Assembly (NCBI RefSeq): GCF_006345805.1
Contig: NW_021829919.1
Span: 1-37,922, forward strand
DNA length: 37,922 nt
Reading direction: 5' to 3'
From: Octopus sinensis
Taxonomy: Eukaryota
The position numbers and the translations under genes were made by a program. Every line of letters begins with the position of its first letter. Position 1 is the first letter of the stretch. The notes under the pieces were generated by a model, which was not told the DNA's origin, did no database searches, and was given only the letters and a program-made list of their open reading frames with translations. Of the stretch, positions 13,940 to 37,334 are shown one piece after another.

Positions 13940-14004
<65 letters not shown>

Positions 14005-14220
14005 CAAACATATATATATATATATACACACACATACATATATACATATGTATATATATGACGGGCTTCTTTCAGTTTCCGTCTACCAAATCCACTCACA
14101 AGGCTATGGTCGACCCAAGGCTATAGTAGAAGACACTTGCCCAAGGTGCTACACAGTGGGACTGAACCTGGAACCATGTGGTTGCTAAACAAGCTACTTA
14201 CTACACAGCCACTCTTGCGG
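13734..14220 (-). mobile_element. SINE, family A (full length)
   Basis: Reverse complement of 6411-6816 with an expanded internal microsatellite. Confidence 0.9.
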
Positions 14221-15401
14221 CCTATGGCCACTCCTGCATCATACACACACACACACTGACACACATGGATATTACATGTGTGTGTATATGACTAAATGAA
14301 TGTTGAGATTCCAATGTTTTACTAGTTGTCATCTTAGGGAGACAGTGATATAAGGCATTCTCAGTTGCTGTAAATCCTGAAAACCAATGAAATAAAATAA
14401 GTCTCTAGCAGGCATGGTTAAAAGTGCTGAAGGGTAGCTAAGAGAGTACTAAAGAAGTTCCTTGTATAACCATGTGGCTTCAGGTTCAGTCCCAAAGAAC
14501 AGCACCTTGAGCAAGTATCTTCTGCACACAGACACACACTCGCTTTTTCTTGTCCACCATATTCACTCACAAAGCATTGGTTGATCCTGAGTTAGAGCAA
14601 ATCTCAAAAACCCAAAGTACTAAACAGCAGTACAAACCCTAAAACGTGATTAAGAAGTGAACATAGATATGTATAAACACACTATATATATATTATATAT
14701 ATATATATATATATACAAACATATATATATATATATATACACACACATACATATATACATATGTATATATATGACGGGCTTCTTTCAGTTTCCGTCTACC
14801 AAATCCACTCACAAGGCTATGGTCGACCCGAGGCTATAGTAGAAGACACTTGCCCAAGGTGCTACACAGTGGGACTGAACCTGGAACCATGTGGTTGCTA
14901 AACAAGCTACTTACTACACAGCCACTCTTGCGGCCTATGGCCACTCCTGCATCATACACACACACACACTGACACACATGGATATTACATGTGTGTGTAT
15001 ATGACTAAATGAATGTTGAGATTCCAATGTTTTACTAGTTGTCATCTTAGGGAGACAGTGATATAAGGCATTCTCAGTTGCTGTAAATCCTGAAAACCAA
15101 TGAAATAAAATAAGTCTCTAGCAGGCATGGTTAAAAGTGCTGAAGGGTAGCTAAGAGAGTACTAAAGAAGTTCCTTGTATAACCATGTGGCTTCAGGTTC
15201 AGTCCAAAGAACAGCACCTTGAGCAAGTATCTTCTGCACACAGACACACACACACACACACTCACTTTTTCTTGTCTACCATATTCACTTACAAAGCATT
15301 GGTTGATCCTGAGTTAGAGCAAATCTCAAAAACCCAAAGTACTAAACAGCAGTACAAACCCTAAAACGTGATTAAGAAGTGAACATAGATATGTATAAAC
15401 A

Positions 15402-15410
<9 letters not shown>
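13970..15410. repeat. Near-identical ~715-bp tandem duplication
   Basis: ~13970-14685 is repeated at ~14686-15410 (acgggcttctttcag at 14061 and 14774); few substitutions and a CA-length difference. Confidence 0.95.
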
Positions 15411-26943: not shown

Positions 26944-27476
26944 CAACAACAACTCACCGCTGAGGACTGACAATGGTGGAGGTAGTGGAGGTGGAGACGG
27001 CTGTGACGCTGAAGAGACATCGAATAGCGTTGCGGTGTGATAACTGCCAGTATGGGAATATGATATATTTTAATGTGTCTGTATGCCTACGTATATATTA
27101 TATATATATATATATATATAGTATATATAATATAATATATATATAATATATATATATATAAATATAAATATATTATATATGTGTGTATTATGTATATATA
27201 TATATTATAATATGTATGTATATGTATATATATATATTATAATATATATGTATAATGTATATACGTATATATAAATGTTTATGTATGTATTTGTGCATAT
27301 ATACGTACATAAACTGGTATATTCATATATATGTACACAGTACCATCTTCCACCCAATGTGTGAGTATACATACATACATGCATACAGACAGACAGACTA
27401 ACAGACACACCACAAACACACACACACACGTTTATATCAGGCAAAGAAAGTTAGACATACAAAGATAGGCTAAATG

Positions 27477-29582: not shown

Positions 29583-30456
29583 AGCATCATCATCATCATC
29601 AATATTATTATTATTGTTATAATTATTATTATATTATTATTATTATTATTATTATTATTGGCAGAAGACGGACAAAATACTTGGTATTATTTGATCTGGT
29701 TCTTTTTGTCAGAGGAGAAACATAAATATTAGTATGCACCGATTTTCCTTTAGTATTATAGAAAAATTAGAGTATAGCCAGATTTATTATAATTGCTATG
29801 TAAAATATATTACAAAAATTTACGTATTCTAAACAAAACCGAAACAAATTCCAAAGCTGCTTTGGTACTCTACCAGTGTAGGCCTTAAATGTGCACCTAC
29901 CGTAAAGTCATGGGGGAAAATGTGCAGTACTAACAAGGTTCTGTGACAAAATATACAACAATAAGGAGACAAAGAGGTACACAGTCTGCTACGTCAATGA
30001 ACATTGAAAAACACTCTGTATGATCAGACAGTTTTTCCGTTGTGAAAGTGCAGTATTCAGCTTAATGTCTCTAGTGAGCAAAAAAAAAACAAAAAAAAAA
30101 CAACAACGAAAACGAAAAAAAGGTGTTGCAACAATAACAATAACAATAACAACAACAAAAAAAAACACCAAACATAAAAATAACAAGAATAAAAAAAAAA
30201 TTATTGAAAACAAAATGTTACCAAACTGAATTCACTGCAAGTTAATATTAAACGAAACGCTGTTCGTATCCATACAGTATGCAAGCATTTGACAACACGT
30301 ATTCAGTTATGCATGCTTTCCAATATTGCCCATATAGGCGTGCATTATGCATGCGCTGTTGCAATTTCGTGCAAGTATGCTGTAGACATTAGTATGTTCG
30401 TGTTAAGACAAAAGACAGTCGTAGAAGAACTGCATACTTTTTTTTTTTCCTTTTAG

Positions 30457-30465
30457 TGCATGGTG
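30457..30465 (+). CDS. Candidate 9-nt frame-preserving microexon (TGCATGGTG)
   Basis: Uninterrupted polypyrimidine tract plus TAG acceptor (30437-30456) followed 9 nt later by donor G|GTAAGC. Confidence 0.55.
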
Positions 30466-30924
30466 GTAAGCACACATTTAAATACGATAGTGCAAAACTT
30501 AAGTTGCATGAACGGGTTTTGCACTTGTTTATGTAAACAAGTGCTAACTCTGTAGCTTTCTCTTAGTCAAACTATTGGTTTCTCGGTTTTTTCTGCCTAT
30601 CTGCCTACCTAACCTTCAAATCTATTTGGCTGCCTGCCTGTCTGTCCGTGTGTCTATCTATCCGTGTGTGTGTGTATGTGTGTAAGTATGTAACTATTTT
30701 AGGCATCTGCCTTTTAATTACTCCAATGATCTTACAGTGTCTCTCTCTCTCACTATTCATAAATATATATGCATGTGTGTGTATATGCATATATATGTAT
30801 ATATATATATGTATATATATATATCTATATAGATATATGTATGTATGTATATATATGTATATATATATATATATATAATTATATATATAATATATATATA
30901 TATATATTATATATATATGGATTG

Positions 30925-35165: not shown

Positions 35166-35750
35166 ATATACATTTATATCATTGGGACTTTGGTGTTCAG
35201 ATTAATCTGTCAAATGTAATGCTTATTTCTTCACAGTATTTTGTATTATTCAGGTTCAAGAGGGGTGTCCACAATATTTGCTTGTAACTTTGTTAATTTT
35301 TTACATACAGATTTCAAATTTCGTCAGAGGGTGCTTTATATACCAGTGGATTGTAGTTATGTCATTTTAGCTGATCCTGCTAATTAAATTTGACTTTTAT
35401 GGGCAGGTAAATTTAATTAACAGGTGTAAAAGCAATAACACTATGGACAAACACTAAAACTGAAATTCTTAATGCATCTCACCTGTTTGATTTGTAACTA
35501 AAATTATCCCAGATGTCAACCGCCAACAATTCTACCATTTTTCAAGATGAGGTACATTAATTTGAATTAATTAAAATATAGGTATAATCGGTACAAGCCT
35601 TTTTCTTTCTCTATATTTCATTCAAACCTTTTCATTGAAAATAAAGTACAAAACTCTTTTACTGTCAATATACCATTGGTCATGTACTCTTATAAAATTT
35701 AATGAATACATTTACATAACAGAATGCATCTAATGAAAAAACGTTCATTA

Positions 35751-35841
35751 ACAGGTAAGGCAAAGGTGAATACAGGTGAGGCAAAGGTGAATACAGGTGA
35801 GGCAAAGGTGAATACAGGTGAGGCAAAGGTGAATACAGGTG
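35751..35841. repeat. 21-bp minisatellite, ~4.3 copies (acaggtgaggcaaaggtgaat)
   Basis: Visible tandem repeat starting at a TTAA. Confidence 0.92.
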
Positions 35842-36304
35842 TATAACATACTGAAAATTAATATGTATTTCTCCCTTTCACATAAAATTTGTAATAAAAT
35901 GAAAGGAATATATGATAGTATTACTATCAAACAACAAAATATGGTTATGCCATATTTCTACCGTGAAACTGTCCAAAGCGTCCTTTACACAAAGGCACTT
36001 TGCAAAATGAACATATATAAATGAGGTCTTGACCTGATATCCTTTCATAGGTTTTTTTGTTTTTTTTCATCAAACAGTCTATAAGCTTTTTTTTCCTTCC
36101 ATTTATTTTTTCCACTTTATGGAAGTCAATAGTTTCTCTGTTGACACCCATCTCAGTTAATTTTGCTTTTCTCATAGTTCTGTGCTTTCTGGAAAAAAAA
36201 TAACCCTTGTGTAACTGAGATGCGATGTCAACCCGAAATTTCAAATGATCGTAATCGTTTGGAGGCAGAGGTACCTTGTGGCTTTTTACATGAACAATAT
36301 ATAT

Positions 36305-36535
36305 ATTTCTTTACTACCCACAAGGGGCTAAACACAGAGGGGACAAACAAGGACAAACAAAGGGATTAAGTCGACTACATCGAACCCAGTGCGTAACTGG
36401 TACTTAATTTATCGACCCCAAAAGGATGAAAGGCAAAGTCGACCTCGGCAGAATTTGAACTCGGAACGTAACGACAGACGAAATACGGCTACGAATTTCG
36501 CCCGGCGTGATAACGTTTCTGCCAGCTCGCCGCCT
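36305..36535 (-). mobile_element. SINE, family B (young), inserted in the piggyBac remnant
   Basis: TSD tgaacaatatata on both sides. Confidence 0.92.
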
Positions 36536-36571
36536 TTTGAACAATATATAAATTAACTATAGTTGGACATA

Positions 36572-36969
36572 ATGCTGCTGTTGTTGTTAAGCAACAAGAC
36601 GGGTAAGGGTGATTAGGTGATGGTCTAGGGCTTAGGGGCGGGAGACTCCAAACCTTGGAAAAAAAAACTTTGGTCGTCTTGTTGTAGTCGAGGGCTCTTC
36701 GTTGACGCCCGACACCACTGAGAGGTGGCCCTCAAAGTCACTGGAAATGGAGATCTCCAGGTCCAATGAACAGATGCTGCTGTTGTTGTTGTTAAGCAAC
36801 AAGACGGGTAAGGGTGATTAGGTGATGGTCTAGGGTTTAGGGGAGGGAGACCCCAGACCTTGGGAAAAAAAAACTTTGGTCGTCTTGTTGTAGTCGAGGG
36901 CTCTTCATTGACGCCCGACACCACTGAGAGGTGGCCCTCGAAGTCCCTGGAAATAGAGATCTCCAGGTC
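36572..36969. repeat. ~200-bp tandem duplication replacing the piggyBac catalytic centre
   Basis: atgctgctgttgttgtt...gagatctccaggtc occurs at 36572-36763 and 36775-36969. Confidence 0.9.
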
Positions 36970-37334
36970 GAAATTTTTGAACGGCTGGACATAGTGCTGG
37001 AGATATATGGATCACCATACCTGATATCAAGATTCCAGTAGTTCCACAGTTGAGGAAGCTGCTCGATACCAAACATAATGTTTATAGAAAAAAAAGCTCA
37101 CGTTTCTACAGTATTGGTTGGCTACCATAGTGGATCAGGTCTTCCACAAATAGAAATTATGCGTTGAGCATTTGTTTCCTCCGCAACAGTTTCAAAAAAA
37201 CTTTTCGGTAAATATATATATATATATATACCGGAGTAAACACATAAATGTGAAACAAGGTGGAAAAAGGAGTACTCAAATACCAGTGGTAGAGTAATAT
37301 GCTTTATTTAAAGCAGCAGAAAATTCAACAAAAT

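What the first reader, a model, noticed from the sequence alone, without database searches (positions are those of the whole stretch)
30230..30600. 9-nt microexon inside a TGCATG-rich, repeat-free intronic island
Seen: ctgcatac-(T/C tract)-tag|TGCATGGTG|gtaagc, a strong acceptor and donor 9 nt apart, open in all frames (CMV in phase 0). A TGC lies just upstream of the tract, TGCATG hexamers occur at ~30310, 30347, 30457 and 30505, and gctaac at 30542. About 370 bp are free of transposons and microsatellites in an otherwise saturated window. Established: neural microexons are activated by Srrm3/4-type eMIC proteins via upstream UGC, and by Rbfox via UGCAUG. Inference: a regulated neural microexon that annotation would likely miss, unusually carrying an Rbfox site within the exon.
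Basis: partly seen in the sequence, partly recalled or inferred. Interest (0 to 1): 0.7.

Follow-up and report, generated by a model that had tools for sequence, protein, structure and literature searches.

The report
Candidate Rbfox-studded octopus microexon
A single-copy patch of octopus DNA holds a strong pair of splice signals nine bases apart and four copies of the binding word of the splicing regulator Rbfox; it is likely a tiny optional exon that Rbfox would tune, but no spliced RNA and no host gene were found.

Summary
The sequence is as described: pyrimidine tract, AG (30455-56), 9 nt, GTAAGC, in a single-copy patch of an unplaced 37.9-kb octopus contig. The bare splice motif is at chance level genome-wide (495 hits against 808 reversed controls), but the patch is an outlier: 4 TGCATG and 12 TGCA, against at most 3 and 6 in 841 background tiles. 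Exon, splice sites and TGCATG words are unchanged in close relatives, which is weak evidence; the gctaac is not kept. The layout does not fit Srrm234/eMIC activation: the tract abuts the AG, the UGC lies upstream of it, the AG-free zone is 29 nt and there is no branch-point consensus. The known MADD microexon of this genome, a positive control, has the eMIC layout. Three of four Rbfox words sit in repressive positions. Best reading: a real exon with strong splice sites (about 0.6), likely Rbfox-tuned and possibly silenced rather than activated in neurons. No spliced joint, host gene or flanking exon was found. The scan had not noted this DNA before.

The parts
30230..30600 (+). Single-copy patch rich in TGC/TGCA/TGCATG
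   Evidence: One match in G000; 12 TGCA against at most 6, and 4 TGCATG against at most 3, in 841 non-microsatellite 371-nt tiles
30273..30384 (+). Predicted imperfect hairpin that would cover the two upstream TGCATG
   Evidence: -42.2 kcal/mol, z -2.97 on +, +0.94 on -; 7 of 541 GC-matched tiles fold as well; weakens to -34.9 with the letters of organism D, no compensating change
30310..30315 (+). TGCATG at -147 (upstream, repressive position by the Rbfox rule)
   Evidence: unchanged in X3, X9, X10, X12 contigs
30348..30353 (+). TGCATG at -109 (upstream)
   Evidence: unchanged in X3, X9, X10, X12 contigs
30431..30433 (+). UGC at -26, upstream of the tract and not between tract and AG
30437..30454 (+). 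18-nt unbroken pyrimidine tract abutting the AG
   Evidence: 6 of 6 listed variants in relatives keep a pyrimidine, length changes by at most 1
30455..30456 (+). Acceptor AG (TAG)
30457..30465 (+). Candidate 9-nt exon; its first six bases are the Rbfox word; it also holds an ATG
   Evidence: unchanged in 5 of 5 listed contigs that span it (X3 twice, X9, X14, X16); splicing not seen
30466..30471 (+). Donor GTAAGC
   Evidence: unchanged in the same 5 contigs
30489..30525 (+). Predicted 12-bp stem with the downstream TGCATG (30505-30510, +40, activating position) in its loop; competes with a stem at 30521-30544
   Evidence: z -3.64 locally; the rival stem wins in this genome (0.99) and is broken in organism D, where this stem has probability 0.65
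30543..30566 (+). gctaac, short tract and AG: a second acceptor-like site, not conserved
   Evidence: 30545 T>A in X9, X14, X16 and 30543 G>A in X9

Best explanation
The patch holds a strong acceptor and donor nine bases apart amid four Rbfox words, and is likely a real 9-nt exon in a long intron of an unidentified plus-strand gene, which would be recognised without eMIC help and tuned, most likely silenced, by Rbfox. Shown: the motifs, their rarity together, single copy, retention in close relatives. Inferred: U2AF binds the U-rich tract that abuts the AG and U1 binds GTG/GTAAGC, so the exon is included by default, as human constitutive-type microexons are; where Rbfox is abundant it binds the word that forms exon bases 1-6 and the two upstream words and blocks the acceptor, so three residues are dropped; the single downstream word would act the other way, so the sign is the least certain step.
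For: Patch is an outlier for TGCATG and TGCA, and the words are strand-biased (4 TGCATG, 0 CATGCA) to the strand of the splice signals. A Y18-AG-N3-24-GTAAG motif occurs 495 times in 5.4 Gb of strand, about 3e-5 per 371 nt, so landing in such a patch by chance is unlikely (my estimate: under 0.2 cases genome-wide for this motif, under 35 for the loosest motif). Of 3 genome-wide hits of Y12-AG-TGCATG..GTRAG, one is this site; the other two have CT-repeat tracts and TG-repeat-like exons. Length is a multiple of three. No listed difference at 38 of 38 splice and Rbfox positions in organisms B, C, D; 6 of 6 tract variants stay pyrimidine. U-rich tract 5-20 nt upstream marks constitutive-type microexons, and TGCATG is enriched beside alternative ones (PMC4317164, passages). 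Rbfox activates from downstream and represses from upstream (PMC11874969, passages). RBFOX-like transcripts are reported in Octopus vulgaris (PMC5736919, passages).
Against: No joint and no loose end at either splice site in 8 of 8 runs laid. No YTNAY branch-point word within 110 nt of the AG, whereas 11 of 11 MADD acceptors have one and 330 of 2523 random 95-nt windows lack one. The bare motif is no commoner than its reversed control (5 against 4, 4 against 2, 495 against 808). Relatives are about 97.6% identical, so retention is weak: 7 changes would miss the 67 motif positions with probability 0.25, and slippage in a T run keeps pyrimidines anyway. TGCA is a palindrome and TGCATG clusters are common in octopus microsatellites (8 of 80 locus strands). 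No host exon on the contig. Fox-1_C found no match in G000. The upstream words are predicted to be paired (unpaired 0.00 and 0.21), which would hide them. PMC11874969 notes that repression does not always follow the position rule.
Confidence: 0.42

Rival explanations
1. Neural microexon activated by Srrm234/eMIC through the UGC, helped by Rbfox.
For: 9 nt, UGC present at -26, one downstream TGCATG at +40. UGC is not strictly needed for SRRM4 response (10.1101/2024.09.17.613571, section 10). An SRRM_C-like exon exists in G000 (E 3e-4).
Against: Tract abuts the AG (19 of 20 pyrimidines), AG-free zone 29 nt, UGC upstream of the tract, no branch-point word; the MADD DFE microexon has 10 of 20, 94 nt, UGC at -12 and CTAAT at -82 and -94, as described for eMIC targets (PMC8797185, passages). 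One control only.
Confidence: 0.13
2. A silent look-alike or decoy inside an RNA element: Rbfox and U2AF bind but the exon is never ligated; the patch acts on splicing of the long intron or as double-stranded RNA.
Against: Hairpins are not kept by compensating changes; frame-keeping length and a near-consensus donor are not needed for a decoy.
Confidence: 0.17
3. A DNA enhancer with clustered POU-type sites; the splice motif is chance.
For: TTATGCAT occurs twice (2 of 841 tiles do so) and TATGC[AT] five times (5 of 841); that these are POU-type sites is recalled, not tested with a matrix. TGCA reads the same on both strands.
Against: Does not explain the tract-AG-9-GTAAG unit or the 4:0 strand bias of TGCATG.
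Confidence: 0.12
4. Neutral DNA: a decayed palindrome or TATG/TGCA-type microsatellite next to a T run, picked out because hundreds of windows were read.
For: Bare motif at chance level genome-wide; TGCATG-rich microsatellites are common; a common repeat head also ends in GTGGTAAG.
Against: The patch scores as non-microsatellite and exceeds all 841 such tiles; no paralogous repeat.
Confidence: 0.12

Closest known systems
Rbfox-regulated alternative micro-exons of human brain (PMC4317164)
   Same: Frame-keeping exon under 51 nt with TGCATG in the near downstream intron
   Different: There the words are enriched downstream and enhance; here 3 of 4 are upstream or exonic, and the U-rich tract directly at the AG resembles their constitutive class
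eMIC (Srrm234, Srrm3/4)-dependent neural microexons (PMC8797185; 10.1101/2024.09.17.613571)
   Same: Length 9 nt, a UGC in the 3' splice region
   Different: Strong, not weak, acceptor; short AG-free zone; UGC upstream of the tract; no CUAAY branch point
Bilaterian-ancestral 9-nt MADD microexon (10.64898/2026.09.05.749416); DFE in octopus
   Same: 9 nt, same genome, long intron
   Different: Another locus (G000:C3, near 90267527, minus) and peptide; it has the eMIC layout and no TGCATG within 200 nt

Membership tests
eMIC-dependent neural microexon | 3-27 nt, frame-keeping | tested here: met
   9 nt between AG and GT, no internal stop
eMIC-dependent neural microexon | UGC close to the AG, between tract and AG | tested here: not met
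   Only UGC within 60 nt is at -26, upstream of the tract; control at -12
eMIC-dependent neural microexon | Weak 3' site, long AG-free zone, upstream-shifted UC-rich tract | tested here: not met
   19 of 20 pyrimidines, 29 nt, U run ending at -2; control 10 of 20, 94 nt, run ending at -28
eMIC-dependent neural microexon | Strong branch point (CUAAY) upstream | tested here: not met
   No YTNAY within 110 nt
eMIC-dependent neural microexon | Neural-specific inclusion, dependent on Srrm234 | not testable with these tools
   Only contigs could be laid; no tissue labels; SRRM_C hit does not show the eMIC domain
Rbfox-regulated cassette exon | UGCAUG words within about 150 nt of the exon, above background | tested here: met
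   4 words, p 0.0002 by shuffles; 0 of 841 tiles reach 4
Rbfox-regulated cassette exon | Words and flanks conserved | tested here: inconclusive
   4 of 4 kept in the organism D contig, but at about 97.6% identity
Rbfox-regulated cassette exon | Exon is spliced into an mRNA, alternatively | tested here: inconclusive
Rbfox-regulated cassette exon | Inclusion changes with Rbfox; Rbfox binds | not testable with these tools
   Needs knockdown, minigene or CLIP; Fox-1_C gave no match in G000, a paper reports the transcripts
Constitutive-type micro-exon (PMC4317164) | U-rich tract 5-20 nt before the exon and strong splice sites | tested here: met
   12 U in -20..-6, more than any of 11 MADD acceptors (4-11); judged by consensus, no entropy score
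Ancestral MADD microexon | Lies in the MADD PH intron and encodes the conserved tripeptide | tested here: not met
   MADD insert is DFE and is assembled on C3
Known RNA family (miRNA, snoRNA) | Rfam match at gathering score | tested here: not met
   5 matches, all far below the gathering score; lineage-specific miRNAs are not excluded

The most novel reading that the evidence does not exclude
A microexon two thirds of which is itself the Rbfox binding word: an octopus 'anti-neural' switch that is included by default and shut off by Rbfox sitting on the exon, with competing hairpins setting access to the downstream word. It would be the mirror image of the eMIC programme and invisible to annotation because it lies on an orphan contig.
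Probability: 0.2. Interest if true: 0.65.

Novelty: new member of a known kind. Interest (0 to 1): 0.36.

Why it matters
Two full-text searches for cephalopod microexon work listed no study of their regulation in octopus; the one octopus transcriptome paper read (PMC9699675, passages) does not use the word. If real, this exon would be a compact test case of whether the Rbfox position rule holds in molluscs and of an exon whose coding letters double as the regulatory site. Without a host gene or a spliced read it is only a good candidate of a well-known kind.

Tried and rejected
No RNA holder listed: none of the 17 runs that hold the stretch is on record as RNA; five runs guessed to be RNA gave only unspliced pieces at depth 2-4, which is no evidence on expression. 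The upstream flank 29845-30177 had little or no cover in X3, X4, X9 and X16, and X4 gave no long listed contig on the patch; holes prove nothing and were not counted as conservation. MADD as host (the contig might fill the 100-N gap in that intron): rejected. Placing the contig by its ends: only repeats. Host exons: 82 of the window's frames scanned against Pfam gave one transposase zinc finger and one sub-threshold hit; that set was 75 of the 118 plus-strand frames and 7 frames. Proteins ending or starting in the read-through of the exon: none; the third frame is too short to search. Paralogous exon: the look-alike at C24 shares 6 of 9 bases but lies between microsatellites and was set aside. 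Known RNA family: none; octopus miRNA lists could not be checked, since the data archive of PMC9699675 is not held as text. Recursive site: AG is followed by TG, not GT. U12 intron: no consensus by eye. Remnant of the common repeat head ending in GTGGTAAG: needs two deletions and the downstream part does not match. The paper that defined eMIC (10.1038/s41559-019-0813-6) is not held and was not seen; its octopus exon lists, and the closed supplements of the 2026 bioRxiv preprint, may list this exon and its gene.

Full report
Setting. The window is a whole unplaced contig (G000:C6390, 37,922 bases) of a 2.72-Gb genome. It is an octopus: an exon of its MADD gene is 100% identical to a protein that the source names Octopus sinensis. 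The window is mostly microsatellites and interspersed repeats. No host exon was found: 82 frames gave no Pfam domain of a cellular gene, scans for acceptor-donor pairs gave only weak candidates, and the two ends match only repeats elsewhere.

Observation. The unit is an 18-nt pyrimidine run, AG at 30455-56, nine bases, GTAAGC. Among 7 open acceptor-donor pairs in non-repeat DNA on both strands it has the best tract (14 of 14, next 12). The patch is single copy.

Is it more than chance? The two halves answer differently. The splice motif alone is not: TGC-N2-12-Y14-AG-N9-GTAAG has 5 hits in the genome against 4 for the reversed pattern, the 8-nt version 4 against 2, and Y18-AG-N3-24-GTAAG 495 against 808. 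In 800 kb of background strand a looser motif had 14 hits, 4 with TGC, 1 with TGC and a length divisible by three. The word content is: 4 TGCATG against 0.31 expected, 12 TGCA against 4.6, no CATGCA; among 841 non-microsatellite tiles of the same length none has more than 3 TGCATG or 6 TGCA. Clusters of four TGCATG in 200 nt did occur on 8 of 80 background locus strands, nearly all in microsatellites, and on none after a microsatellite filter. The case for function rests on the two meeting; my estimate of chance meetings is under 0.2 in the genome for the strict motif and under 35 for the loosest, that is under about 0.2 in the windows this scan has read.

Relatives. Runs under four organism labels hold the patch. 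Five listed contigs from four runs and three labels span the exon (X3 twice, X9, X14, X16); none differs in AG, exon or donor. The X9 contig covers 30207-30659 with 11 other letters, 9 of them listed. Six listed events fall in the tract and all keep a pyrimidine. Seven listed substitutions fall elsewhere; none hits the 38 splice and Rbfox positions or the TGCA words, which chance would give with probability 0.25. Two of them break the gctaac, so that element and the acceptor-like site behind it are not a kept feature. These organisms are too close to prove constraint.

RNA. No joint and no loose end at either splice site appeared in the 8 runs laid. This cannot refute the exon, because a spliced 9-nt exon shares no 31-letter word with the stretch and its flanking exons are not on the contig. 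Searches for proteins carrying the read-through of the exon were empty.

Positive control. A 2026 preprint (10.64898/2026.09.05.749416; passages and section 9 read) names a 9-nt MADD microexon as bilaterian-ancestral and neural. MADD lies on C3, and the relevant intron has an assembly gap, so I tested whether this contig fills it. It does not: the insert is DFE in octopus and arthropod proteins and is assembled in that intron. It then serves as a control. DFE has 10 of 20 pyrimidines before the AG, a 94-nt AG-free zone, a 31-nt UC-rich tract ending at -28, UGC at -12 and CTAAT words at -82 and -94, and no TGCATG within 200 nt. That matches the published eMIC layout (PMC8797185, passages; its preprint 10.1101/2021.02.24.432780, passages; 10.1101/2024.09.17.613571, abstract and section 10; PMC12871342, abstract only). 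The candidate has 19 of 20, 29 nt, a U run ending at -2, UGC at -26 and no branch-point word within 110 nt, while 11 of 11 MADD acceptors have one. So it fails the eMIC membership test on three features. The missing branch-point word also counts against its being an exon at all; 13% of random windows lack one.

Mechanism. In human brain data, constitutive micro-exons have U-rich tracts 5-20 nt upstream and alternative ones do not, and TGCATG is enriched downstream of alternative ones (PMC4317164, passages). Rbfox usually activates from downstream and represses from upstream, with exceptions (PMC11874969, passages). Here the core signals look self-sufficient, and the words lie at -147, -109, exon +1 and +40. 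I therefore infer a default-included exon that Rbfox tunes, more likely down than up; a protein on exon bases 1-6 would sit on the acceptor junction (inference). Folding adds a caveat: the upstream words are predicted to be paired in a plus-strand hairpin (z -2.97), and the downstream word lies in the loop of a 12-bp stem that competes with another. With the letters of organism D the first hairpin weakens from -42.2 to -34.9 kcal/mol and the balance of the two small stems flips, so no structure is supported by compensating changes. Rbfox itself was not found by its vertebrate-type C-terminal family; O. vulgaris transcripts are reported (PMC5736919, passages). The protein effect cannot be given without the host: CMV, xAWx or xHGx by phase, or a start codon if the exon is in a 5' leader.

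Verdict. The scan's notes hold nothing on this DNA; they hold one real and one skipped small exon elsewhere in this genome (not checked). If real it is a new member of a known kind, with one unusual trait, the Rbfox word as the exon's first six bases. Supplements that I could not see (the eMIC paper, the 2026 preprint, the data archive of PMC9699675) may already list it.

Noticed in passing
L043 (G000:C8591:21387-24500): A second, very divergent and compact MADD-like gene (death and PH domains within about 900 bp, no microsatellites) on a 379-kb unplaced contig; it looks like DNA of another eukaryote, such as a parasite, in the assembly.
   Followed up: no
L046, G000:C3 near 90267527, minus strand: The octopus MADD DFE microexon with a textbook eMIC layout; squid-like and octopus isoforms also join DFE to a short alternative end (IPKLGK) that drops most of the PH domain.
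   Followed up: partly
window 26958-27008, minus strand: A 51-nt acceptor-donor pair open for a proline-rich peptide (SQPSPPPLPPPLSVLS); if real, a gene would run on the minus strand. It lies in trinucleotide-repeat DNA and may be chance.
   Followed up: no
L057 (G000:C1:166917078-166917112, minus): Two tiny exon-like units in tandem (23 nt and 9 nt) separated by only 29 nt, each with tract, AG and GT(A/G)AG.
   Followed up: no
window 35188-37226: A DNA-transposon remnant with a DDE_Tnp_1-like zinc finger, about 80% identical to many copies, interrupted by a 206-bp tandem duplication.
   Followed up: partly
window 13950-14680 and 14680-15410: A near-perfect direct duplication of about 720 bp, seen by eye and in the twin frames; recent duplication or assembly artefact.
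   Followed up: no
L062 (G000:C11337:11167-11301, minus): An isolated SR-rich exon matching SRRM_C over the cut-off on an unplaced contig; possibly part of Srrm234.
   Followed up: partly
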